DNA of 64,000 bases from a virus. Lineage: Duplodnaviria; Heunggongvirae; Uroviricota; Caudoviricetes; Demerecviridae. The notes beneath the pieces were generated by a model. The model saw only the letters and a list, made by a program, of their open reading frames with translations. It searched no databases and had not been told where the DNA came from. Numbering within the stretch: position 1 is the first letter of the stretch; each line of letters begins with the position of its first letter. The position numbers and the translations under genes were made by a program. Location of the stretch: IMG/VR virus record IMGVR_UViG_2974606035_000001, positions 3,086-67,085 of that record; one strand, written 5' to 3'. Below are positions 1-48,230 of this stretch, piece by piece.

Positions 1-1143
1 TCCATTGACTCCAGCACGCGCCCCGTGTCGATAAGATCATCCAGAACTTTATCACGTCCGGCTGCATACTGTTTCGCTAGAAATACACCAGAAGCGCGGT
101 TGTGATGGTTGCGCGATGTAAAATCATGCACGTCATGCACAAACTGATATTTTGGTTTAAGAATATCAAGCAAGCTATTTTCTCCGGCCCATGACGCAAC
201 GGCACAATCATCATCTAATTTTTCAGCGTGCACGTCGCCATACTGCAAGCCTAAAACGTGCCCCGATGTTTCATAACATCCTGCGGGGGTCGCGCAAATA
301 TTCAAATCATAAAACATTCCGCTTTCGTCCATCGTTTCAAGCTGGCGAACAAAAAATTCACCGTCTTCGTCGAACTCAACAATCAGCGCGCCGTAATTAT
401 GCAGCGCCTCAGCTTTTTGCCCTGCTTTCTGCTGAATGTAGTTTTTGAGCGTTGCCGTTCCGGTTGAATACATGCGGCGTACTACTTCACCTTTGAGAGC
501 TGGGACGCTTTCGGCGGTGATTTTAGCGTGACCAATTGCCAGACCTTCAATATTTAAAGCCGTTGCGGTTTCTGCGAATCCAGAAAGCGGATAATCTGCC
601 GTTGGTAGCACGTTAATCTCTGCCATGAAAGCGAAACGGCGGTTATTTAAAAACACGTTTTTGCCGCAGATATATTTGTCAAATGCGGAATCATATTTTA
701 CACCGTCTGCGCCTTCCCCATTCTGGAAGCCGTTTTTATTATAAATATACTTAGAAACGAGCAAATCAGCGCCACAATATTTAGCATATTGTTCAAGTGA
801 GGCCAAAAAGTTTTTATGCGGGAAAGTATTATTCTGAATCGATGTAATAATAAAGCGTTTGCCTTGTTTTACTTCCCACTGTTCCACAGTGCTAGAAACA
901 ACCCCAGCCGCTTCCGGGCGCTCGTCGTTTTTAATGGCTTTTGCTACTTTTGCCGCTTTCGGCTTAGCTGGTTTGTTTGCTTCTAACCAATCGCAGATAG
1001 CGGTGGAGTGTTTTGTAGTATCGTATACCGCTTTCGAAATATCGTCACAAACTTCCAGTTTAGTGGCGCGCAGACGTTTACCATAGAAATTAAAGTCAGC
1101 GGCCATTTTCAGGATAACGGTTTGTTTTTCTGCGGAAATAATC
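1..1143 (-). CDS. A1: Pre-early protein, C-terminal part of product has calcineurin-like metallophosphoesterase motifs (GDVH, DDD, NHH); 5' part of gene (start 1143), extends past window start; T5 A1-like
   Basis: Manual translation of minus strand from ATG at 1141-1143 (RBS GGAG upstream) stays open to position 1; no minus-strand stop-bounded ORFs in track; metallophosphatase motifs seen. Confidence 0.5.
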
Positions 1144-2685: not shown

Positions 2686-3142
2686 ATCGTCGATTCCTTA
2701 TAATGAATAAGTTTACCGCCGATAGGCTTTAAGATATACCCAATTTTTAAAGAGCGCGGCGGTAAACTTTCCGCCGTGTAGTTCGTCATTGCCGCCCTAC
2801 GAGATAAATAATAACAAACAACGAAAAAGGCGCAACCTTATATTTGTAAAGAAATGTAAAGACAAACGCCACCGGACACCGTGCGGCGACCTGGGCGCAG
2901 CGCGTTAAAATTAAAAGAAACGGGCGCGCGAATACCACAAAACATAGCAGATAAGCAAGTAATTTTTTCATTTATATTTGCTTTGCCCTACTTGACAAAA
3001 TCCAAAAAGCTCGTGGCAGCGATAAACGACGTGGCCCCTTATGATTGGATGGCCAAAAACTTTATTGCGTTCTGGGGCGTTTTAGGCGCATTCTAGCCTT
3101 GTTGATAACTTATCCCCAAAAGCAAAAATGAAATTTTCCTAG

Positions 3143-3175
3143 TTATCCACTTGACTTTTATTTTCCAGTGGATAA
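3143..3175. promoter_or_regulatory. inverted pair of DnaA boxes (TTATCCAC ... GTGGATAA, 18-bp spacer)
   Basis: exact 8/9-mer match to DnaA box consensus TTATCCACA in both orientations. Confidence 0.5.
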
Positions 3176-3231
3176 CTACTTATTTTATAAAATAAATTAA
3201 TTGACTTTTATTTGTTAGTATGCATCGGAAA

Positions 3232-3312
3232 GATAGCAGACTATTAATCACTAGGATGATAATCATGCTGGTGGATTGTAACGACCTGAATTATTAGCAG
3301 ACTATTAATCAC
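3232..3312. repeat. two direct copies of AGCAGACTATTAATCAC
   Basis: seen directly at 3232-3248 and 3296-3312. Confidence 0.6.
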
Positions 3313-3387
3313 AGAAAAACTCATTAGCCAACTAACTATTTCATGATATATAATATACATATAAATTAATGAGAAATAATAATTATA

Positions 3388-3482
3388 TGAAATCATCACC
3401 AGTATAATAATAACTATAAGAAATCATCACCAGTATAATAATAACTATATGAAATCATCACCATTATAATAATAACAATAAG
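3388..3482. repeat. three tandem copies of ~32-bp unit (TAAGAAATCATCACCAGTATAATAATAACTA)
   Basis: direct reading; near-identical copies. Confidence 0.7.
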
Positions 3483-3519
3483 AAACTATCGGCATAAGTG
3501 AGAACCACTATCATTTAAG

Positions 3520-3540
3520 TTATCCACAACGTTATCCACA
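3520..3540 (+). promoter_or_regulatory. two direct DnaA boxes TTATCCACA separated by 3 bp
   Basis: exact consensus 9-mers at 3520-3528 and 3532-3540. Confidence 0.55.
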
Positions 3541-3590
3541 GCACAAAATAATTTGACACGATAGGCGGCGATATAAGGACTTTTACACAG

Positions 3591-3628
3591 GCTTATCCAC
3601 AGGTTATCCTACTGTATAAATATACAGG
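3591..3628. repeat. left arm of long inverted repeat: DnaA box + degenerate DnaA box + LexA-type box CTGTATAAATATACAG
   Basis: reverse complement recurs at 5341-5381; CTGT-N8-ACAG with AT-rich core. Confidence 0.6.
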
Positions 3629-3780
3629 GTAGAAAGGCAGTGTTAACAACTGCAATCAATTTTATGCGGCCTAAAACGCTTTCTAACGAGCTAAATGCGG
3701 TGGGGTAATATTAAAGTAAAGCCTTCACCCGTCGCCCTGGTGGCTTCGCCGTGTTTTGCTATTTTGTAAAGTTTTGTAAA

Positions 3781-3815
3781 GGCCGCCTTTTATGGTGGCC
3801 TTTTTTGTTATAATG
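3781..3815 (+). terminator. rho-independent terminator (AGGCCGCC-loop-GGTGGCCT + T6)
   Basis: 8-bp GC stem followed by TTTTTT on plus strand. Confidence 0.6.
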
Positions 3816-3870
3816 CCTTTACACCGTTTGAGGACGGTTGAAAATTTTCCCAAAAATTTGGAGGCTTAAA

Positions 3871-4101
3871 ATGGTTGCTTATTCTTCTTCTGATGCTCTT
3901 TTCACTGGTAAAGGCTGGGTATCAAATCGCTGGATTATTCAAGAAATGGTGCAAGAATACGGCATTGCTAAAACTTATAATACCATTCAGGCGCTTTATG
4001 ATAATGATCAGATTGATCAGCAAACGGCGGGCTTTTTGCTGGATACCCTGAAGGCGGAACACTGCACCAAAAAGCAAGCTGCAAAAATTATTTTAATGTA
4101 A
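3871..4101 (+). CDS. hypothetical protein (77 aa from internal ATG with GGAGG RBS)
   Basis: ORF track 3838-4101; RBS GGAGG 7 nt before ATG 3871. Confidence 0.45.
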   Translation: MVAYSSSDALFTGKGWVSNRWIIQEMVQEYGIAKTYNTIQALYDNDQIDQQTAGFLLDTLKAEHCTKKQAAKIILM

Positions 4102-4150
4102 GTAATAACGGGGGATATAATATCCCCCACTAACTAGGGGAGTATTACTA

Positions 4151-4333
4151 ATGGTTATTTTTCGAGCTATTTTGGCGGGTATCTTGGGTGCTATTTTAAC
4201 CCTTTTTGCTACCGCTTACGGTATTCAGGATTCCTATTGCGGTTTAGCAAACACAAAACCTATGGTTACTATTGGCGCGGGTATCGCTGTATTTTCTTAT
4301 CTGCTGGGCTGCATGAATAGTAAAGGAGAATAA
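4151..4333 (+). CDS. small membrane protein (60 aa)
   Basis: ORF track; hydrophobic. Confidence 0.4.
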   Translation: MVIFRAILAGILGAILTLFATAYGIQDSYCGLANTKPMVTIGAGIAVFSYLLGCMNSKGE

Positions 4334-4336
4334 AAA

Positions 4337-4549
4337 ATGATCCGCAACGTTTCGCTTGCACGTTCGAAAGGTTTTAAGCTGGTGGATGCTAACACGTTCG
4401 AGCGTCCTGATTGTAAAATCGAATATGTAGCACGTAACAAAAACGCTTTTCGTGTTACCGAGAAAAAATTTGATAAGCGCGGCAACGTGATCACTGAAAC
4501 GGTTAAATATTTTGCCACCTTTTACGCTGCATTTCGTGGGGTACTATGA
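4337..4549 (+). CDS. hypothetical protein (70 aa)
   Basis: ORF track; AAGGAG RBS. Confidence 0.45.
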   Translation: MIRNVSLARSKGFKLVDANTFERPDCKIEYVARNKNAFRVTEKKFDKRGNVITETVKYFATFYAAFRGVL

Positions 4550-4672
4550 AAAGCGTTATTGTTGTTCTCCTTGCAATGGCTGGCGGTTTTATCGCCACCT
4601 TATTTAAGAATGATCCCGTTTCGTTGGGTATCTTTATGCTTTTATCGGGCTATCTGATCGGGAGGTTGTCAA

Positions 4673-5017
4673 ATGGTTATTTATGAGGGCAATCGCTTTG
4701 TTGCTAATTGCCGCCCGGCATTGTTAGCAAACTATTTGAATCAGCTTTCACCAGCTTATAAGGGCGTTATTAATATTTACGAGGGTAAGGCACATTATAA
4801 AATTAATGCGGTCGTTGCCCGTGAACTAGCATTTCAATTTTTGACCTTTGCATCTTGTGATATTCAGGTCATGGGTGAAGCATTAATTGCAGAAAATGAA
4901 GAGGATTTTATTAATATTTTCCGCAAGGTATGCACTGAGCGCCTGATAATGAAAGGCGCGTATATTCAATCCACCGCTGATAGTATTGAAACAGCGTTTC
5001 GAAAGGTGGCGCAATGA
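4673..5017 (+). CDS. hypothetical protein (114 aa)
   Basis: ORF track; GGGAGG RBS. Confidence 0.5.
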   Translation: MVIYEGNRFVANCRPALLANYLNQLSPAYKGVINIYEGKAHYKINAVVARELAFQFLTFASCDIQVMGEALIAENEEDFINIFRKVCTERLIMKGAYIQSTADSIETAFRKVAQ

Positions 5018-5157
5018 GATTATATATTTTCGTTGGTAATGTTGAGGCAGCTAATGATTCCGCTGGTGGCGATAACGTTCGCCGCTATTGGCAGAAATAT
5101 ATTTACTAGGAGTAATAATCACGGGGCGCAACTATAGGGAAGTGCCCCCCCCCAATT

Positions 5158-5182
5158 CTCAAATGAGAATCATTCTCATTTG
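5158..5182. repeat. perfect palindrome AATGAGAATCATTCTCATT
   Basis: seen directly. Confidence 0.6.
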
Positions 5183-5340
5183 ACCGCGCCCGCGATGGTT
5201 AGCCTGCTAATGGTTAGGGTGTTACGTGTCGCCTTGTGTGATCGTTAGCTCGCTAACTAATTTTCAAGCCTCCTCCAATTTTGCCCTTGTTTTAGTCTAG
5301 GACGTTTTAACGCTATATTAGAACTATTCACTGCGTAGGA

Positions 5341-5381
5341 ATACTGTATAAATATACAGTAGGATAAGCTGTGGATAAGTC
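5341..5381. repeat. right arm of long inverted repeat: LexA-type box TACTGTATAAATATACAGTA + DnaA boxes (GGATAAG, TGTGGATAAG)
   Basis: reverse complement of 3591-3628. Confidence 0.6.
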
Positions 5382-5442
5382 TGTTAATAACGCCTCAAAA
5401 TGGCTAGGATTCTGTCAAGTCAAATCGTGCTGTTAATAAGTC

Positions 5443-5452
5443 TGTGGATAAC
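5443..5452 (-). promoter_or_regulatory. DnaA box (TGTGGATAAC)
   Basis: consensus match. Confidence 0.45.
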
Positions 5453-5479
5453 TTAAATAACAGTGTTTCTCACTTCCGT

Positions 5480-5690
5480 TCTTAAATGCGAATTATTATC
5501 ATTTGTATTCCCCTATCTAACTAATAATCATTTCACTTCCTGAATAATTTTCATTCCACTTTTTAAATAAGAATCATTCCACTTTTTAAATGATAATGAT
5601 TCTCATTTCACTTTCTAAATGCGAATCATTATCATTCTCATTCCGCTTTTTAAATGAGAATGATTCTTATTATCATTCGTATTTAGCGCA
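5480..5690. repeat. about 5 direct copies of ~20-bp unit TTTAAATG(N)GAATCATT..TCAT
   Basis: read directly: cttaaatgcgaattattatcat / tttaaataagaatcattcc / tttaaatgataatgattctcat / tctaaatgcgaatcattatcat / tttaaatgagaatgattcttat. Confidence 0.6.
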
Positions 5691-5718
5691 GGGCAATTGC
5701 CCTGCGCTTTTGTGCAAA
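5690..5718 (+). terminator. 22-bp perfect palindrome GCGCAGGGCAATTGCCCTGCGC followed by TTTTGTG
   Basis: hairpin + T-run on plus strand. Confidence 0.5.
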
Positions 5719-6447
5719 TCCGACATTGCTCCACGGGTGTTACGCGTGGGCGTGTATGTGCAAATCCGACAATTTTTGGTAGTGTGCAAATCCGACCCGA
5801 AAAATTTTTATAGTGTGCAAATCCGACAATGAATTTTCCCAAAAACTCCAGCAATCCGATGCTGCGCATCAATCCTGTGGAATTAGCTAGAATATGTGCA
5901 GATCCGACATGGGTTTATTTGTGCGAATCCTACAAGATTTTTGTGACTTCGATTGGAGGGTGTGTGATTGTGTGAGTTTGGGGAGAAGTTGAGAGATCGA
6001 GAGAAATTTGAGGGAACTGCGAGAGGGCCGCATGTTTGGTGCGGAGCACCTGATTTGCGGGGATTTTGGGGAAGAGTTGAGAAGATTTGGGTTAATTTGA
6101 GATAAGTGCAGATAAAGTAAAATTTTATTAGCTAAATAGGGCAAAATAGCTTGACAAGCGAAAATTCTTGTGGCTCTAAAAACTCAGGCAATCATGGGCC
6201 TTCGGCCCGAAATAATGCTGCCATTTTCAGGAGATTATATGCCCATGAAAACTTAGGCAATTGTGCAAATCCGACCAGTTTTTAAATTTATGTCAGTGTG
6301 CAAATCCGACAGTAATTTCTGGAAATGTGTTTTGGAAAAATGTCTCCTAGAAATAACCGCCCTCCCCATAACCGCCCTGTATAGGAAAACCGGCCTAGGA
6401 TATTTATAGCAGGAGAGAAACTGCCCTAGAACATGTGCAAATCCGAT
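5711..6447. repeat. array of ~9 dispersed direct copies of TGTGCAAATCCGAC(A/C) motif (5711, 5756, 5783, 5813, 5895, 5920 degenerate, 6262, 6297, 6434)
   Basis: seen directly; irregular spacing 25-340 bp; an extra copy lies inside CDS at 9046-9060. Confidence 0.7.
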
Positions 6448-6857
6448 TTAAAGTTTAGTGTAAACTCTAGAGTTAGTGTTCAACTATTCCTAGAAACTTA
6501 GGAGTCTAGAAGAAAGTGTTGTGCCATCCTAGCAGAAGAGCGGCAACCGGTGTATCATCTTGAACACAGATATTGCCTTTAAATATTTTTTAGTTATTTA
6601 AAAGTAAATATACCCCCCATTTCATGAGAGTTAGCCCCTCTAGGCGCGTGCGATTTGATACATCCTCCTAAGTCTCGGTGTGGAAGAACAATTGACGAGA
6701 ACCTGCGAACAGAACCGTCATCAAGTGTTTTCCTACGAGGAATGATGTAAATCTACGGCCTAGAGGTAAAAACAAGTTGATGTTTTTAATCTATGAGATT
6801 ATTATAACACATTATTCTCACGAATGTCAAGCAGATTTCGTTATTTTTAAATTTTCG

Positions 6858-7586
6858 TCATGAGTTTGGAGTTGGGTAAATTTTTATGCAACCTTGACTT
6901 AATAGATATTCTTCTGCCTCTATAGCTTTAATGTTGAATATCTCTTTTGCTCCATCGAATTTATAATGATTAGCAAATTTATTTTCAAAAAATTTATGTG
7001 CTTGGTGTTCTATTTTGTAGGCAAGTTCTTTCGATCCTTTCTTATATTGGTAGATACCAAATACCTCCATATCTTCGAAACCCGGCACACGCAGTTTATC
7101 ATACTCTAGATTCTTAAACCTTTGATGTGGCTCTCTAGAGACCCCAATCTTTGTCTTTAATTTTTTCCTAGACTGATCTTTATTAGAGAAGATATAGAGA
7201 TATGTGGGAAATTGAACATCTTCTTCTGCTTCCGGTTTCTCGATAGGTGTATTGAGATTGCTTTCTCTAGCACATTGTAAACAACCGTGCCCATCTAGGT
7301 GAGATCTAGCAGTTTGCATAAAGTATCCTTTATGCTTATAGCACCATATCTCTACTAACTGATTGGCTGTCTTATAATTAACTTTTTCATATCCATACTC
7401 TTCTTTCTGGACTTTTAAAGCTTTCCTAATAAAGATAAGGTTTAAGGCCTCTTGTTGGAAGTCGGGGTGAAGTTGCCTAATCTTCGTTATATTAGTAGAG
7501 CCATTTGACTTCAAAAAGTTTTTAAGAGGAAACCTCCGGGCTTCCTCGCGTAGCTTTTTATTAATTTCAGCACGTAAATCATCCAT
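6858..7586 (-). CDS. T5orf172/GIY-YIG-like domain protein (242 aa); C-terminal FDGAKEIFNI matches the T5orf172 protein at 47367-48230
   Basis: ORF track; YLYIF..KIGVS..R..E..FDGA.E.FNI motif; CxxC pair. Confidence 0.5.
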   Translation of the reverse strand: MDDLRAEINKKLREEARRFPLKNFLKSNGSTNITKIRQLHPDFQQEALNLIFIRKALKVQKEEYGYEKVNYKTANQLVEIWCYKHKGYFMQTARSHLDGHGCLQCARESNLNTPIEKPEAEEDVQFPTYLYIFSNKDQSRKKLKTKIGVSREPHQRFKNLEYDKLRVPGFEDMEVFGIYQYKKGSKELAYKIEHQAHKFFENKFANHYKFDGAKEIFNIKAIEAEEYLLSQGCIKIYPTPNS

Positions 7587-8789: not shown

Positions 8790-9394
8790 TAATTACCTCT
8801 CTTATCTTCATTAATGACAGCTCCTAACGCCTCCATAATAGCATCCTCTAAACTTCCATGTTTACTAGGATTATTAAAATGAGTAGTACAAACAGAACTC
8901 CTAGAAACTCCAGCATCCGCAGGTGCTACGCTTCGCATATCAGACTCAAAAGCTTCTTGAGTATGTTTCAACTGTACAGAAGGGCCATAATCTTCCACAA
9001 ACTTATATGACTGCGTACTACTTACTACACCACCACAAGGAACATTGTGCAAATCCGATGATTTATTTAGCATTGCGATTGGTCCGGACGGCCATGAATC
9101 TCGAATAGTTACTGGAGCACTAGGACGATTTACCTCAGTCTTCACGAGTTTGTAACCAGCGTCGATTAATGCGTTAATTAGATTATCAGCTGGGATGCGA
9201 GCCTTACCAAAAATCTCACGAGCGTTGTTGAGCCTACCTTCAAAACCTTTACATGCTCTAATATTAGTGTGTGCAAAGGTTAGCTTCATAGATTTGAACT
9301 GTACAGTGGCAGTTAAATCTTTAAAGCTATAATCCCACGTATTCAGTTCATGGTCTGGTACTACTTGAATAGATTGTTGTGTATTAAAAGTCAT
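8789..9394 (-). CDS. hypothetical protein (201 aa); contains a TGTGCAAATCCGATG repeat copy
   Basis: ORF track. Confidence 0.5.
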   Translation of the reverse strand: MTFNTQQSIQVVPDHELNTWDYSFKDLTATVQFKSMKLTFAHTNIRACKGFEGRLNNAREIFGKARIPADNLINALIDAGYKLVKTEVNRPSAPVTIRDSWPSGPIAMLNKSSDLHNVPCGGVVSSTQSYKFVEDYGPSVQLKHTQEAFESDMRSVAPADAGVSRSSVCTTHFNNPSKHGSLEDAIMEALGAVINEDKRGN

Positions 9395-11275: not shown

Positions 11276-11510
11276 CTTTAAGAATATCCTCTACCATATC
11301 ACAAGACTGTTGCAATTCATCAGCAATACGTTTAATATCGGTTTTTGTTACTTTACCAACTAACATCACCAGTAACATAGAAAAGATAATAAGTGGAACT
11401 GGAATAACAAATAAACCTACCTTAACAACATTCTTTGGCGTCCATGTGTGGTATTTAGTAATCAGTACACCAACCACAATTAGATAAAACGCTAGAATAA
11501 ACATCATCAT
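11265..11510 (-). CDS. membrane protein (81 aa)
   Basis: ORF track; two TM. Confidence 0.45.
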   Translation of the reverse strand: MMMFILAFYLIVVGVLITKYHTWTPKNVVKVGLFVIPVPLIIFSMLLVMLVGKVTKTDIKRIADELQQSCDMVEDILKDEA

Positions 11511-11949: not shown

Positions 11950-12245
11950 TATTTCTTACCTTTCAGTTGCTTAACTTCACGCTCAAAGCTAGCTGCTCGA
12001 CGTTCTGCCACTGCTTGATGCTCCTTAGCAAAGCGTGCCTCTTGTTTTGCTAAGTTAAAGGCCATAGCGTTCTTGTTAAGAGAATCATACATCTTCTTCA
12101 ACGCCGGAATAGACATTTTCATCAGTTGCCCCTCAAATCCTTGCATGTCGAGGAGAATTGCTAATACATTGGCCATTTCAGTCTTAGTAAGGTTAGAGGC
12201 GTCGAAGTCTTTAGTCATGTTTTCCATTAGAATTTCCTCTCTCAT
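11949..12245 (-). CDS. hypothetical protein (98 aa), coiled-coil
   Basis: ORF track; promoter+leader consensus upstream. Confidence 0.5.
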   Translation of the reverse strand: MREEILMENMTKDFDASNLTKTEMANVLAILLDMQGFEGQLMKMSIPALKKMYDSLNKNAMAFNLAKQEARFAKEHQAVAERRAASFEREVKQLKGKK

Positions 12246-45949: not shown

Positions 45950-46091
45950 TTGGCTTTCCTTTTTATAGTTATCAGGATTTAAGGAATATTCTACATTATT
46001 ATTGGTCATTAGGCAAATAAAATTTTCTGATAGAAAAGGCCCGAGTATTTTCATACCCAGGCCCTGTATATTACCAGTCTAGCTTTTTAGC

Positions 46092-46313
46092 TTATTCAAT
46101 TACTTTAGCTCTAGCTACTTCTTTTAATAGAATATCTATGGAGGTGCTCAGCTCGTTATAATTGAATGGTTTATTTGGATTTGAGGTTACAATTTTCCAC
46201 GCTAGGGTTGTCTTAGGGCTTTCTTCCCCTTCCTTACGTGTAATTATATTAGCAGCACTCAGTGAGGTACGATGTACTTTAGTTTTACGGCTCAGATGAA
46301 CAACGTTTCCCAT
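46092..46313 (-). CDS. hypothetical protein (~73 aa from MGNVVHL)
   Basis: ORF track 46092-46382 trimmed to avoid PhoH overlap. Confidence 0.35.
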   Translation of the reverse strand: MGNVVHLSRKTKVHRTSLSAANIITRKEGEESPKTTLAWKIVTSNPNKPFNYNELSTSIDILLKEVARAKVIE

Positions 46314-46314
46314 A

Positions 46315-47076
46315 TTACACCTTCCCCATGTCTTTAAAAATGTCATAAAATGCTTTAGACTCAACAGAACGAACGTTATCAATCAATTCGATCATTGAGA
46401 ATGGGGCATTTTCGTATTTCTCATAGACTTCCATAAGGAGTGCTAGACCTGAGTCACCTTTAATGTCTTTCTGAGCTATATCTCCGCAGATAATTAAACG
46501 GCAGTCTTGCCCTACACGAGTTAGGAGACAAATCATTGCCTCAACGGAAATATTCTGAGCTTCATCGACAATTACATAGGAGTTGTTGAAAGTTCTGCCA
46601 CGAGCATGTTCTACTGCCAAAAATTTAATTTTCTGACGTTCGACATATCCCTTATAGGCATGATCGCCGATGGCCCATTTCATACCATCAGCTATTGGCT
46701 CTAACCAAGGCTCTAGCTTTTCCGCTAGATCACCAGGAAGCATACCAAGAGACTTACCTAGAGGTTCATTAGGACGTACGAGGATCACTTGCTCAATATC
46801 TGAGTGAATGTCTACGAGTTCCTGAGCTGCAAGAACAGACGGAATAAAGGTTTTACCTGTACCTGGCTCACCAATACCCACAGTCACTGTGTTGTTCTTG
46901 ATCATATTGATATATGATTTTTGCTCGCGGTTTTTACCTACTAGGGATTTAGCAACTGGGTTAGCGTAATCATTAGAAAAATCAGCCTGAATTACGTTAT
47001 TCTCATACTTGTTGCCACGCTTTCTTGAACCATTGCGGTTCTCTCTTTTTTGACGTGCTTTTCCCATAAATAACAC
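46315..47076 (-). CDS. phoH: PhoH-like ATPase
   Basis: Walker A GEPGTGKT, PhoH-like core. Confidence 0.75.
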   Translation of the reverse strand: MLFMGKARQKRENRNGSRKRGNKYENNVIQADFSNDYANPVAKSLVGKNREQKSYINMIKNNTVTVGIGEPGTGKTFIPSVLAAQELVDIHSDIEQVILVRPNEPLGKSLGMLPGDLAEKLEPWLEPIADGMKWAIGDHAYKGYVERQKIKFLAVEHARGRTFNNSYVIVDEAQNISVEAMICLLTRVGQDCRLIICGDIAQKDIKGDSGLALLMEVYEKYENAPFSMIELIDNVRSVESKAFYDIFKDMGKV

Positions 47077-47143
47077 TCCTATAGTGTACTTCGCTTCTAA
47101 CAGAGGATCAACAAAAAGATCTTGTTTATCAACTTACAAATAT

Positions 47144-47172
47144 ATTATACCAGTATATACAGTAAAAAGCAA
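47144..47172 (-). promoter_or_regulatory. early promoter copy for phoH
   Basis: AAGCAA-17-ATTATA on plus. Confidence 0.5.
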
Positions 47173-47309
47173 CTACAATTTTAAATAAGCCTATGATATT
47201 GCATTTAAATAAAAAATTTGCTTGCTTATAAAGGTAGAAGTATGATACTAGATAATCATTTATTTATATGTGAAATATTACAGTATTAGATGGCTAAAGA
47301 AAATTTTAA

Positions 47310-47338
47310 TTGACATAGTGGATAATGTTTAGTATAAT
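47310..47338 (+). promoter_or_regulatory. consensus sigma70 promoter TTGACA-17-TATAAT
   Basis: ttgacatagtggataatgtttagtataat. Confidence 0.6.
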
Positions 47339-47366
47339 AGGTGTAAAAATTCTGTGGAGAAGAGGA

Positions 47367-48230
47367 ATGCCGAAAAAATTAACTCAAGAAGAAGTAGATA
47401 AATGCCTAGCCGAACGTGGTTTTACTATGGTGGATAAGCCATATCAAAATTCTAGGTATAAGCATACGTATCAGTGTGAATATGGTCATCAATGGACAGC
47501 TAAATTTGACGCTATTAGGAATGGAAAGACCAATTGTCCTACTTGCTCTATTAATAGCCGTAAACTAGATATTGATAAAATTAATACTGTATTACAGGAC
47601 AGGGGTATTACATTGTTGGATGGCTATAAAAATAGTGCCGATATAAATACTAGATTTAGGTGTGTTTGTGGTCATGAGTGGACTACTACACTTAATAGTA
47701 TAATTAATAGAGGTAGCGGCTGCCCATCTTGTGCTATTAATAAGCAGAAACTTAGTGTTAATATTATAAATGATCGTCTTACCGCCAGAAATATCAGAAT
47801 AGTGGGAGAATATAGTAATGCGAATACTAAGACAGCCTTTCTATGTGGTGCAGGGCATAGGTGGGAAGCTACTCCAGGATCTGTATTAAGAGGGAACGGT
47901 TGTCCTTACTGTAATTATAGGGATTTAGAAAGTACTAAGATATATGTTATGCATAGCCCCTCACACGGAGTTAAAATAGGTAGATCTAATAATCCAGATC
48001 GTAGACTTTTACACATTAGATCTAGTAGCCACCTTATTGATTTGGAAATAATTAAAGTATTTGAAATTGGAGAATATAGTAGTGCAGTTAGAATCGAAAA
48101 ATTAGCCCATAACTACTTTAAAGAACAGAATTGCCAGTACAAAGATTTTGATGGCGCTACGGAATTCTTCAATATTGAACCAAAAGTAGCTATAAAGTTT
48201 ATCGAGGAAATAATCAATGACAGAGAATGA
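47367..48230 (+). CDS. T5orf172 (GIY-YIG-like) domain protein with three CxxC repeat modules (288 aa)
   Basis: three GH.W...CP.C repeats; KIGRS...R...E...FDGATEFFNI C-terminal domain; GGAGAAGAGG RBS. Confidence 0.55.
   Translation: MPKKLTQEEVDKCLAERGFTMVDKPYQNSRYKHTYQCEYGHQWTAKFDAIRNGKTNCPTCSINSRKLDIDKINTVLQDRGITLLDGYKNSADINTRFRCVCGHEWTTTLNSIINRGSGCPSCAINKQKLSVNIINDRLTARNIRIVGEYSNANTKTAFLCGAGHRWEATPGSVLRGNGCPYCNYRDLESTKIYVMHSPSHGVKIGRSNNPDRRLLHIRSSSHLIDLEIIKVFEIGEYSSAVRIEKLAHNYFKEQNCQYKDFDGATEFFNIEPKVAIKFIEEIINDRE

What the first reader, a model, noticed from the sequence alone, without database searches (positions are those of the whole stretch)
3100..6860. 3.7-kb ORF-poor, repeat-dense locus between pre-early genes and early genes (injection-stop-signal-like)
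The stretch lies between the A1/A2-like genes and the first early gene. It contains nested repeat systems of at least five kinds (features 3143 to 6447 give the individual coordinates). Only a few tiny plus-strand ORFs, all between the two long inverted repeats, interrupt it. This matches what is known of the T5 left-terminal-repeat end and injection stop signal region, which was reported to hold DnaA boxes and large inverted repeats. The LexA-type boxes and the TGTGCAAATCCGAC array are not, to my recollection, described features of that region.
Basis: partly seen in the sequence, partly recalled or inferred. Interest (0 to 1): 0.7.

Follow-up and report, generated by a model that had tools for sequence, protein, structure and literature searches.

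The report
T5-type injection-stop repeat region
This is the already described, repeat-packed DNA at the inner end of the terminal repeat of T5-like phages, where genome injection pauses. It is ordinary for this phage family, except that two of its conserved palindromes look like binding sites for the host proteins LexA and Fur, which I could not find stated in the literature available to me.

Summary
The window is Salmonella phage SP3 (Tequintavirus; 100% match). Region 3100-6860 is syntenic with the T5 left-terminal-repeat "repeat regions". Every repeat maps one-to-one onto features already annotated in T5 AY587007. These are IRC/IRD, IRD'/IRC', palindromes D-J, DRC, the 7.9% nick motif, DRD1-9 and the terminal-repeat end.

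The T5 injection-stop (iss) interpretation is supported.

The "LexA-type box" is T5 "palindrome D". Its LexA-operator character (19/20 to consensus) is not mentioned in Davison's 2020 analysis or any other paper I could search.

I find it conserved as CTGTAT-N4-ATACAG beside DnaA boxes in eight of nine Demerecviridae lineages, including Vibrio, Proteus, Klebsiella and Pectobacterium phages. A second conserved palindrome, AAATGAGAATnATTCTCATTT, is Fur-box-like. No strict IHF site is present.

The DRD copies flank the conserved terminal-repeat end (predicted at 6176|6177).

Verdict: a known locus in a new genome, with low to moderate interest. The host-factor reading (DnaA plus LexA plus Fur) gives cheap tests of the unsolved two-step injection mechanism.

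The parts
3100..3178 (.). Tail of T5 repeat region 1. It holds near-consensus DnaA boxes: TTATCAACA at 3100 (-), TTATCCCCA at 3110 (+), and a 15-nt-arm hairpin at 3140-3178 carrying TTATCCACT on each arm.
   Evidence: (I16); syntenic with T5 up to 5418
3234..3312 (+). Two exact copies of TAGCAGACTATTAATCAC, 61 bp apart. This segment is poorly retained among relatives.
   Evidence: (D16)
3375..3485 (+). 31-bp tandem repeat, 3.6 copies (AATAATAACTATATGAAATCATCACCAGTAT). It is a lineage-variable segment with no aligned counterpart in T5.
3497..3627 (+). Left 131-bp module, IRC (3497-3535) / 51-bp spacer / IRD (3587-3627). It has two pairs of consensus DnaA boxes 3 bp apart (3520, 3532; 3581, 3593) and an invariant TTGACA in the spacer.
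3610..3629 (.). LexA-operator-like palindrome TACTGTATAAATATACAGGG (copy in IRD).
   Evidence: (D17)
3659..3684 (.). Inverted repeat B' (partner IRB at 3072-3097).
3778..3891 (+). Intrinsic-terminator-like hairpin (3778-3803), followed by the homologue of the putative T5 pre-early promoter T5P5 (3802-3891).
3871..5109 (+). Six small pre-early genes at 3871-4101, 4151-4333, 4337-4549, 4546-4686, 4673-5017 and 5014-5109. They are homologues of T5 ORF013-017. The third matches the PHROG family named for the Ung-dependent abasic-site nicking endonuclease.
5161..5228 (.). Near-invariant block. It holds the perfect palindrome AAATGAGAATCATTCTCATTT (Fur-box-like), GACCGCGCC, and GTGTTACGTG about 25 bp further on. 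The same elements occur in the same order in Vibrio phages.
5342..5361 (.). T5 'palindrome D', TACTGTATAAATATACAGTA. It matches the LexA consensus TACTG(TA)5CAGTA at 19 of 20 positions.
5344..5474 (-). Right 131-bp module, IRD' (5344-5384) / spacer / IRC' (5436-5474). DnaA boxes lie at 5370 and 5443, with variant boxes TTATTAACA at 5382 and 5431. It is the best-retained segment of the whole locus and the core iss candidate.
5480..5680 (.). T5 DRC1-4 and palindromes E-I: AT-rich 23-35-bp repeats made of overlapping Fur-box-like units. The T5 blender shear point (T5 9618) maps to about 5659.
5686..5711 (+). GC-rich hairpin GCGCAGGGCAATTGCCCTGCGC plus TTTT (T5 palindrome J; terminator-like on the + strand). 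It contains the motif CCCTGCGC (5700-5707), annotated in T5 as the major 7.9% single-strand nick.
5711..5934 (+). DRD copies 1-6 (TGTGCAAATCCGAC), at -464 to -255 from the predicted terminal-repeat end.
6063..6101 (+). T5 direct repeat A, copies 2 and 3.
6150..6189 (.). Conserved terminus sequence TTGACAAGCGAAAATTCTTGTGGCTC|TAAAAACTCAGGC. The right end of the direct terminal repeat is predicted between 6176 and 6177, by identity with the annotated ends of T5 (10139) and Spc35 (9573).
6262..6447 (+). DRD copies 7-9, at +87, +122 and +259 beyond the predicted repeat end. A tenth copy lies inside a gene at 9046-9059.
6450..6857 (.). Poorly conserved tail, not part of the repeat system. It lies next to a homing-endonuclease gene (6858-7586, - strand) that most relatives lack.

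Best explanation
**Identity (shown).** The locus is the SP3 orthologue of the inner half of the T5 terminal repeat. It comprises:
- the divergent pre-early control region (T5 repeat regions 1 and 2);
- a block of six small pre-early genes;
- repeat region 3, the boundary between first-step and second-step DNA transfer. This region carries the injection stop signal, the 7.9% nick motif, the end of the terminal repeat and the DRD array.

**Mechanism (inferred).** The locus acts in cis as protein-binding DNA, not as a coding or RNA element. Two inverted copies of a 131-bp module each carry two pairs of DnaA boxes plus a near-perfect LexA operator. The right-hand copy is preceded and followed by Fur-box-like palindromes.

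I propose that abundant host DNA-binding proteins load onto these sites as they enter the cell. DnaA was already proposed by Davison; LexA and probably Fur are added here on the basis of sequence. The result would be a compact or looped nucleoprotein complex that helps arrest transfer near window position ~5660, until the pre-early proteins A1 and A2 relieve it.

The DRD copies sit 6 to the left and 3 to the right of the conserved repeat end, with none at the left end. I read them as the recognition array for the phage machinery that cuts or handles that end: terminase, or the DNA-binding protein A2.

**My probabilities.**
- Orthology with the T5 iss region: 0.97.
- The conserved boxes are protein-binding sites rather than DNA-structure elements: 0.75.
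- LexA binds palindrome D in vitro: 0.85. That binding matters for the phage: 0.45.
- Fur binds the AT-rich palindromes: 0.4.
- DRD is a terminus or packaging array: 0.35.
For: **Identity.**
- 100% match to SP3; 86-91% collinear alignment with T5; one-to-one mapping of about 40 annotated T5 features.
- Same gene order (A1, A2, gap, small + ORFs, gap, leftward early genes) in Vibrio, Proteus, Klebsiella and Pectobacterium relatives.

**Constraint.**
- The two modules are the most widely retained 150-bp stretches of the locus, with coverage 0.87-0.95 against 0.76-0.83 for the genes.
- Per-base conservation peaks on the DnaA boxes, on the CTGTA/ACAG half-sites, on the 5140-5240 block, on the hairpin/nick/DRD1 stretch and on the terminus sequence.

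**Protein sites rather than arm pairing.**
- The right module is 94% identical between SP3 and T5, but only 75% identical to its own partner within SP3 (spacer 55%). The arms therefore do not evolve in concert.

**LexA.**
- All 81 CTGT-N8-ACAG sites in 742 kb of relatives' flanks have AT-rich spacers (80 of 81 read CTGTAT..ATACAG). Seventy-one of them lie within 70 bp of a consensus DnaA box.
- The half-sites are fixed while the spacer varies: ATAAATAT, ATGTTTAT, ATATTTAT, TTATTTAT, AATTATAT, ATGGATAT.
- The consensus is cited from PMC2994835.

**Fur.**
- The three best matches in 64 kb to GATAATGATAATCATTATC (15-16 of 19) all lie at 5592-5674. There are 10 hits at >=13/19 in 550 bp against 0.39 expected.
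- The family motif has 47 sites against 1.75 expected across nine lineages.
- The same palindromes form an array in an unrelated E. coli myovirus.
- The closest E. coli chromosomal match lies 85 bp upstream of iroN.

**DRD.**
- The array flanks the annotated repeat end in T5, Spc35, IME260 and My1, and is absent from the left end.

**State of the field.**
- The mechanism remains experimentally unresolved as of 2023-2026.
Against: - No binding, injection or packaging experiment is available here, so every mechanistic step is inference from sequence.
- Cytoplasmic proteins that bind entering DNA would be expected to pull it in rather than stop it. A stop therefore needs an anchor (for example membrane-bound DnaA) or a topological trap.
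- The Fur-like palindrome prefers GAGAAT over the consensus GATAAT (G in 31 of 47 sites). That is a conserved position of the Fur hexamer, so another protein may be the binder. The iroN match has E = 3.
- Neither LexA-like copy overlaps a convincing, conserved promoter. The candidate -35 at 3641-3646 is poorly conserved.
- A T5-like phage carrying the same palindrome is recorded as propagated on E. coli DH5a. DH5a is recA1 (my knowledge), so release of the pause cannot depend on RecA-driven LexA cleavage.
- The DRD core GTGCRAA is also 8 of 9 to the relaxed DnaA box, so DRD could be weak DnaA sites rather than sites for a phage protein.
Confidence: 0.85

Rival explanations
1. The locus, or its right half, is a replication origin. 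DnaA boxes plus AT-rich repeats plus same-orientation iterons (DRD) resemble oriC and iteron plasmids. A phage or host initiator would open the AT-rich DRC region.
For: - Clustered paired DnaA boxes.
- An AT-rich repeat block at 5480-5680.
- Nine DRD copies in a single orientation.
- The DRD reverse complement ATTTGCACA is 8 of 9 to TTWTNCACA (read directly from the sequence).
Against: - The cumulative GC skew of the window turns at about 46-47 kb, not here.
- Davison cites mapping of T5 origins near the centre of the molecule, and notes that replication genes are not yet in the cell during first-step transfer.
- The locus is duplicated at both genome ends.
- DRD spacings of 25-343 bp are unlike the regular iteron arrays of plasmid origins.
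Confidence: 0.1
2. The pause is caused by DNA structure alone. Cruciforms or hairpins formed by the many palindromes, or pairing between the two 131-bp modules, would jam the DNA in the tail or channel without any sequence-specific protein.
For: - Single-strand folding of 5140-5720 is far more stable than shuffles, z = -9.9.
- Perfect palindromes lie at 5161-5181, 5342-5361 and 5686-5707.
Against: - The modules are only 75% complementary, and their spacers 55%. Each is conserved separately between phages, with no concerted evolution.
- In distant relatives the palindrome half-sites are fixed while the centres drift. That is the signature of a dimeric protein site, not of a stem.
- From my own knowledge, not checked here: T5 ejects its whole genome in vitro without A1 or A2.
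Confidence: 0.15
3. The boxes are transcriptional operators. The left module lies between the divergent pre-early operons. LexA, DnaA and Fur would tune pre-early transcription to host state, and the right module would be a duplicated copy.
For: - The left module lies between the leftward promoters (T5P1-3 homologues) and the rightward T5P5 homologue.
- A promoter-like site on the - strand overlaps the LexA-like box: TTAACA, 16 bp, TATATT, at 3646-3619.
- An invariant TTGACA lies in all four spacers.
Against: - The right module is the better conserved one (94% against 81%). No gene lies downstream of it before the hairpin at 5686.
- The candidate -35 is poorly conserved.
- The invariant TTGACA has no -10 at a proper distance (sequence).
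Confidence: 0.25
4. The conserved palindromes are sites for phage proteins, for example the pre-early DNA-binding protein A2 or A1. They would resemble host LexA and Fur operators only by coincidence.
For: - A2 is annotated as a DNA-binding protein and is conserved family-wide at 40% identity, with an invariant VRSKL segment.
- The Fur-like motif deviates systematically from the Fur consensus at one position.
Against: - A 19 of 20 match to the LexA consensus, kept across hosts whose LexA shares that consensus (the shared consensus is my knowledge), is hard to get by coincidence.
- The Fur-like array also occurs in an unrelated phage family; whether that phage encodes an A2 homologue was not checked.
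Confidence: 0.25

Closest known systems
Bacteriophage T5 LTR repeat regions 1-3 and injection stop signal (annotated in AY587007; analysed across 25 T5-like phages in Davison 2020, bioRxiv 10.1101/866236)
   Same: - Same position, order and sequence of IRC/IRD, IRD'/IRC', palindromes D-J, DRC, the nick motif, DRD1-9, DRA and the repeat end.
- Eight DnaA-type boxes in pairs 3 bp apart.
- Module separation is 1847 bp, close to the 1851 bp quoted for DT57C.
   Different: - SP3 lacks the T5 HNH-endonuclease insertion between regions 1 and 2, and lacks T5 ORF011/012.
- SP3 has a 31-bp tandem repeat at 3375-3485 with no T5 counterpart.
- SP3 has all four consensus boxes in the left module, where T5 has three.
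- SP3 has a homing endonuclease just beyond the locus.
E. coli SOS boxes (LexA operators, CTG-N10-CAG; PMC2994835)
   Same: - A 20-bp palindrome matching TACTG(TA)5CAGTA at 19 of 20 positions.
- Half-sites invariant and spacer AT-rich and variable across lineages.
   Different: - It does not overlap a convincing promoter.
- It occurs as an inverted pair 1.85 kb apart, welded to DnaA boxes, in a virulent phage.
- Binding is untested.
Fur boxes (GATAATGATAATCATTATC; PMC4506495), for example the iroN promoter
   Same: - Overlapping hexamer and 7-1-7 architecture.
- 15-16 of 19 and up to 13 of 14 matches, clustered in arrays.
- 27 of 31 identity to the iroN upstream region.
   Different: - GAGAAT is preferred over GATAAT.
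- No regulated gene is evident.
- Binding is untested.
oriC and iteron-type replication origins
   Same: Clustered DnaA boxes, an AT-rich block and same-orientation short repeats.
   Different: There is no skew switch here, the iteron spacing is irregular, the locus is duplicated at the genome ends, and the T5 origins are reported elsewhere.

Membership tests
T5-type terminal-repeat injection-stop region | Lies between the leftward dmp-A1-A2 pre-early operon and the leftward early genes | tested here: met
T5-type terminal-repeat injection-stop region | 131-bp IRC-spacer-IRD module and an inverted IRD'-spacer-IRC' copy with a ~51-52-bp spacer | tested here: met
   3497-3627 and 5344-5474; the spacer is 51 bp by the T5 annotation
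T5-type terminal-repeat injection-stop region | Eight DnaA or variant DnaA boxes, in pairs separated by 3 bp | tested here: met
   Boxes at 3520/3532, 3581/3593, 5370/5382 and 5431/5443
T5-type terminal-repeat injection-stop region | AT-rich DRC repeats with palindromes E-J, then nine DRD copies | tested here: met
T5-type terminal-repeat injection-stop region | Located inside a long direct terminal repeat that ends within the DRD array | tested here: inconclusive
   The SP3 record holds one collapsed copy. The end is inferred at 6176 from sequence identity with the annotated ends of T5 and Spc35. Sequencing reads would be needed to confirm it.
T5-type terminal-repeat injection-stop region | DNA transfer actually pauses here, and resumption needs A1 and A2 | not testable with these tools
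   Requires blender or shear injection assays.
T5-type terminal-repeat injection-stop region | Single-strand nick at the 7.9% site | not testable with these tools
   The motif CCCTGCGC is identical at 5700-5707. The nick itself cannot be seen in a sequence.
LexA operator (SOS box) | CTGT-N8-ACAG palindrome with AT-rich spacer | tested here: met
   Two copies, 19/20 and 17/20 to the 20-bp consensus; conserved in eight lineages
LexA operator (SOS box) | Overlaps the promoter of a repressed gene | tested here: inconclusive
   Only a weak, poorly conserved promoter-like site overlaps the left copy, and none overlaps the right copy.
LexA operator (SOS box) | Bound by LexA | not testable with these tools
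   Requires EMSA, footprinting or ChIP.
Fur box | Match to the 19-bp consensus or 7-1-7 motif, typically in overlapping arrays | tested here: inconclusive
   Best 16/19 and 13/14, and strongly clustered. There is a systematic G at a conserved T position.
Fur box | Bound by metal-loaded Fur | not testable with these tools
   Requires EMSA or a Fur titration assay.
Replication origin (DnaA/iteron type) | Coincides with a strand-composition switch or mapped initiation site | tested here: not met
   The GC-skew minimum is at ~46-47 kb. T5 origins are reported near the genome centre.
IHF binding site | WATCAANNNNTTR consensus | tested here: not met
   Seven matches in 64 kb, none inside 3100-6860

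The most novel reading that the evidence does not exclude
The injection-stop region of T5-like phages is a composite landing pad for three host global regulators (DnaA, LexA and Fur), conserved from Salmonella to Vibrio phages. Occupancy by these proteins builds the arrest complex, or couples the first-to-second-step transition and pre-early expression to the host's replication, DNA-damage and iron status. Involvement of LexA and Fur in T5 biology has, as far as I could search, not been proposed.
Probability: 0.3. Interest if true: 0.75.

Novelty: already known. Interest (0 to 1): 0.35.

Why it matters
How T5 stops after injecting 8% of its genome has been open since the 1960s. Papers from 2023-2026 still call the mechanism poorly understood and note that no functional study of these sites exists.

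The locus itself is not new. What may be useful is the recognition that its best-conserved palindromes match operators of LexA and Fur. That turns a "mass of repeats" into a short list of cheap experiments: host mutants, gel shifts, and scrambled half-sites. The observation that the DRD array brackets the conserved repeat end likewise gives a candidate cis site for terminus formation in a phage family widely used for biocontrol.

Tried and rejected
- **IHF sites.** The strict consensus is absent from the locus.
- **Known RNA families.** Only sub-threshold Rfam matches were found. The best was PrrF at 30 bits against a gathering score of 90.
- **Replication origin.** The composition switch lies elsewhere.
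- **Pairing or concerted evolution of the two modules.** Rejected, because the orthologous modules are much more alike than the paired ones.
- **LexA-regulated promoter at the left palindrome.** The candidate -35 is not conserved.
- **"LexA cleavage releases the pause".** This is disfavoured. A T5-like phage with the same palindrome is recorded on DH5a, which is recA1 by my knowledge.
- **"DRD unit is lineage-specific, so a phage protein binds it".** This held only in part. The unit is identical in Klebsiella and Pectobacterium phages. In Vibrio phages the core GTGCRAA persists and only the 3' half differs.
- **E. coli genome search for the AT-rich palindromes.** All matches have E = 3. The iroN hit is illustrative only.
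- **Literature gaps.** Davison's 2015 review could not be retrieved. It, Heusterspreute 1987 and Wang 2005 were not read, so an earlier mention of LexA or Fur there cannot be excluded.

Full report
**Source and layout.** The stretch 3100-6860 is 100% identical to Salmonella phage SP3 (MG387042, genus Tequintavirus; window position = record position minus 3085). It matches 498 phage records, 126 of them over at least 80% of its length. In SP3 and in phage Spc35 the surrounding genes are the leftward pre-early genes A1 and A2, then small rightward ORFs, then leftward early genes. In Spc35 the whole stretch up to 9573 is annotated as the left terminal repeat that "comprises first-step-transfer DNA".

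- The 14-mer TGTGCAAATCCGAC (up to 2 mismatches) occurs 11 times in 64 kb against 0.35 expected. Nine copies lie at 5711-6447, all on the + strand.
- CTGT-N8-ACAG occurs 5 times against 0.56 expected. The two copies with AT-rich centres are the identical 18-mers at 3610 and 5342.
- Six of the 13 TTWTNCACA boxes, and all five perfect TTATCCACA boxes, sit in two short modules.
- The repeat tools also find a 31-bp tandem repeat of 3.6 copies at 3375-3485, an 18-bp direct repeat, AT-rich 23-35-bp repeats at 5480-5680, and many palindromes.
- Single-strand folding of 5140-5720 is 9.9 standard deviations more stable than shuffles.

There are two qualifications. The middle 1.24 kb holds six genes that each match a conserved phage protein family with E-values of 1e-25 to 1e-64. 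The last ~400 bp is not conserved among relatives.

**What is it?** Alignment with T5 (AY587007) is collinear at 82-91% outside a few insertions and deletions. The T5 record annotates about 40 repeats, palindromes, promoters and one nick in this region. I transferred them through pairwise alignments, and each lands on a matching SP3 sequence:
- IRC at 3497-3535 and IRD at 3587-3627;
- IRB' at 3659-3684;
- palindrome D at 5342-5361;
- IRD' at 5344-5384 and IRC' at 5436-5474;
- DRC1-4 and palindromes E-I at 5480-5678;
- palindrome J with the 7.9% nick motif CCCTGCGC at 5700-5707;
- DRD1-9 at 5711-6446;
- DRA2/3 at 6063-6101.

The DRD spacings are the same in both phages. Davison's 2020 comparison of 25 T5-like phages describes exactly these three "repeat regions". 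It covers the 131-bp IRCspacerIRD and IRD'spacerIRC' modules, eight DnaA boxes in pairs 3 bp apart, and nine DRD repeats. It places the shear point of the first-step fragment at T5 9618, which maps to window ~5659.

Its belief that the TGTGCAAATCCGAC array is undescribed is wrong.

**The LexA-type boxes.** The element is annotated in T5 as "palindrome D", so the sequence is described. Davison's text contains no occurrence of LexA or SOS. No paper I could search couples T5-like phages with LexA boxes. Older papers not held in the library could not be checked.

The right-hand copy, TACTGTATAAATATACAGTA, matches the 20-bp consensus TACTG(TA)5CAGTA at 19 positions. The core CTG-N10-CAG is cited from PMC2994835.

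I fetched the equivalent regions of distant family members: Klebsiella IME260, Pectobacterium My1, Proteus Stubb, and Vibrio VCPH, VspSw_1, 70E37.6 and Achelous. In every lineage except Achelous, whose fetched stretch starts at the record start so the equivalent region may be truncated, CTGT-N8-ACAG palindromes sit next to DnaA boxes at the syntenic position.

Across 742 kb of fetched flanks, all 81 such sites have AT-rich spacers (80 of 81 read CTGTAT..ATACAG), and 71 lie within 70 bp of a consensus DnaA box. The half-sites never change while the centre drifts. That is the pattern expected for the operator of a conserved dimeric protein. These hosts share the LexA consensus (my knowledge).

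**A second host-like motif.** The AT-rich repeats at 5480-5680, and a perfect palindrome at 5161-5181 (AAATGAGAATCATTCTCATTT), resemble Fur boxes. The consensus GATAATGATAATCATTATC is cited from PMC4506495.
- The three best matches in the whole window (15-16 of 19) all lie at 5592-5674. Ten hits of at least 13/19 fall in 550 bp against 0.39 expected.
- The family-wide motif AATGA(G/T)AATnATT(C/A)TCATT occurs 47 times in nine lineages against 1.75 expected. G is preferred over the Fur-consensus T.
- The first copy, followed by GACCGCGCC and, about 25 bp further on, GTGTTACGTG, is kept in Vibrio phages.
- The same palindromes form an array in an unrelated E. coli myovirus, Schickermooser.
- The closest E. 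coli chromosomal match lies 85 bp upstream of iroN. That match has E = 3, so it is only illustrative.

Fur is a reasonable candidate binder, but not an established one. Davison's text does not mention Fur.

**Structure or protein sites?** The right module is 94% identical between SP3 and T5 (spacer 88%). The left module is 81% identical. The two modules of one genome are only 75% alike (spacer 55%). The modules therefore do not evolve in concert, and selection acts on each copy's boxes rather than on complementarity between copies. The right copy is the more constrained one, in line with Davison's view that it is the primary stop signal. Per-base conservation peaks on the boxes, the half-sites, the hairpin/nick/DRD1 stretch and the terminus sequence.

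**The repeat end and DRD.** The annotated right ends of the terminal repeat in T5 (10139) and Spc35 (9573) fall at the same conserved sequence, TTGACAAG.GAAAAT..TGTGG.TC|TAAAAACTCAGGC. SP3 carries this sequence with the junction at 6176|6177.

In all three phages, six DRD copies lie 255-466 bp to the left of the end. Three lie 87, 122 and 258-259 bp to its right. Klebsiella IME260 has about 6+6 copies, and Pectobacterium My1 has 6+4, around their annotated ends. T5 has no DRD near the left end of the repeat.

The left end is injected first, so by the usual last-in-first-out rule (general knowledge; inference) it would be packaged last. The right repeat end would then be where packaging starts. 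That makes DRD a plausible terminase, or A2, recognition array. Against a purely phage-specific reading, the DRD core GTGCRAA persists in Vibrio phages. It is also 8 of 9 to the relaxed DnaA box.

**Rivals.**
- A replication origin is unlikely. The skew minimum is at ~46-47 kb, and the reported T5 origins are central.
- A purely structural jam is disfavoured by the conservation pattern.
- A role as transcriptional operators remains possible for the left module. It does not explain the better-conserved right module.
- Strict IHF sites are absent.
- A model in which RecA-driven LexA cleavage releases the pause is disfavoured, because a T5-like phage with the same palindrome is recorded on DH5a (recA1 is my knowledge).

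**Verdict.** This is a known locus, the T5 injection-stop and terminal-repeat boundary region, in a further T5-like genome. One of its two novelty claims is wrong. The other survives only as an interpretation: a LexA-operator reading of an already annotated palindrome. I add family-wide conservation to that reading, plus a parallel Fur-like motif. The mechanism of the pause remains experimentally open.

Noticed in passing
window 6801-6830 (- strand) and 6614-6630: A perfect sigma-70 consensus promoter (TTGACA, 18 bp, TG-TATAAT; 12/12) points leftward into the non-coding tail, just downstream of the endonuclease gene. A terminator-like hairpin lies about 170 nt further on. This could be a small transcript. 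The segment is poorly conserved among relatives.
   Followed up: partly
window 6858-7586 (- strand): The first gene beyond the locus matches homing/HNH endonuclease families. It is present in only ~5-10% of the related loci compared, so it looks like a mobile insertion at the boundary of the repeat region.
   Followed up: partly
window ~46000-47500: The cumulative GC skew reaches its minimum here. A promoter-like site (TTGACA..TATAAT, about 47311-47339) and three near-consensus DnaA boxes (47317, 47353, 47429) lie at the switch, near the genome centre where T5 origins were reported.
   Followed up: no
L043 (Proteus phage Stubb, MH830339), record position 11415: The PhageTerm-predicted end of the terminal repeat falls exactly after CCCTGCGC, the motif annotated in T5 as the 7.9% nick, rather than at the conserved terminus sequence. 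A nick may have been read as a terminus.
   Followed up: no
L048 1470-1580 (Escherichia phage Schickermooser, Phapecoctavirus): An unrelated myovirus carries an intergenic array of four palindromes of the same AAATGAGAATnATTCTCATTT type as the T5 DRC region.
   Followed up: partly
L003 233-247 (T5, inside the dmp gene): A perfect 7-1-7 Fur-type palindrome, TGATAATCATTATCA, lies near the left end of the T5 terminal repeat. Pectobacterium My1 has a related palindrome at position 17 of its genome.
   Followed up: no
window 5578-5714: There is a sub-threshold Rfam match to PrrF, a Fur-regulated small RNA of Pseudomonas (30 bits against a gathering score of 90). It spans the AT-rich repeats and the terminator-like hairpin. 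It is most likely chance.
   Followed up: no
window 9046-9059: A tenth DRD copy (TGTGCAAATCCGAT) lies inside an early gene, as in T5 (copy 10 at 12073).
   Followed up: no
search results: Several records labelled Listeria or Campylobacter phages carry this Tequintavirus region at 93-95% identity. These are probably mislabelled or contaminated entries.
   Followed up: no
L005 6150-6300 (Vibrio phage VCPH): In place of the AT-rich Fur-like block, this phage has about ten tandem copies of a different 14-bp unit (GCAACTGTTGCGGT-like) between the DnaA boxes and the DRD-like repeats.
   Followed up: no
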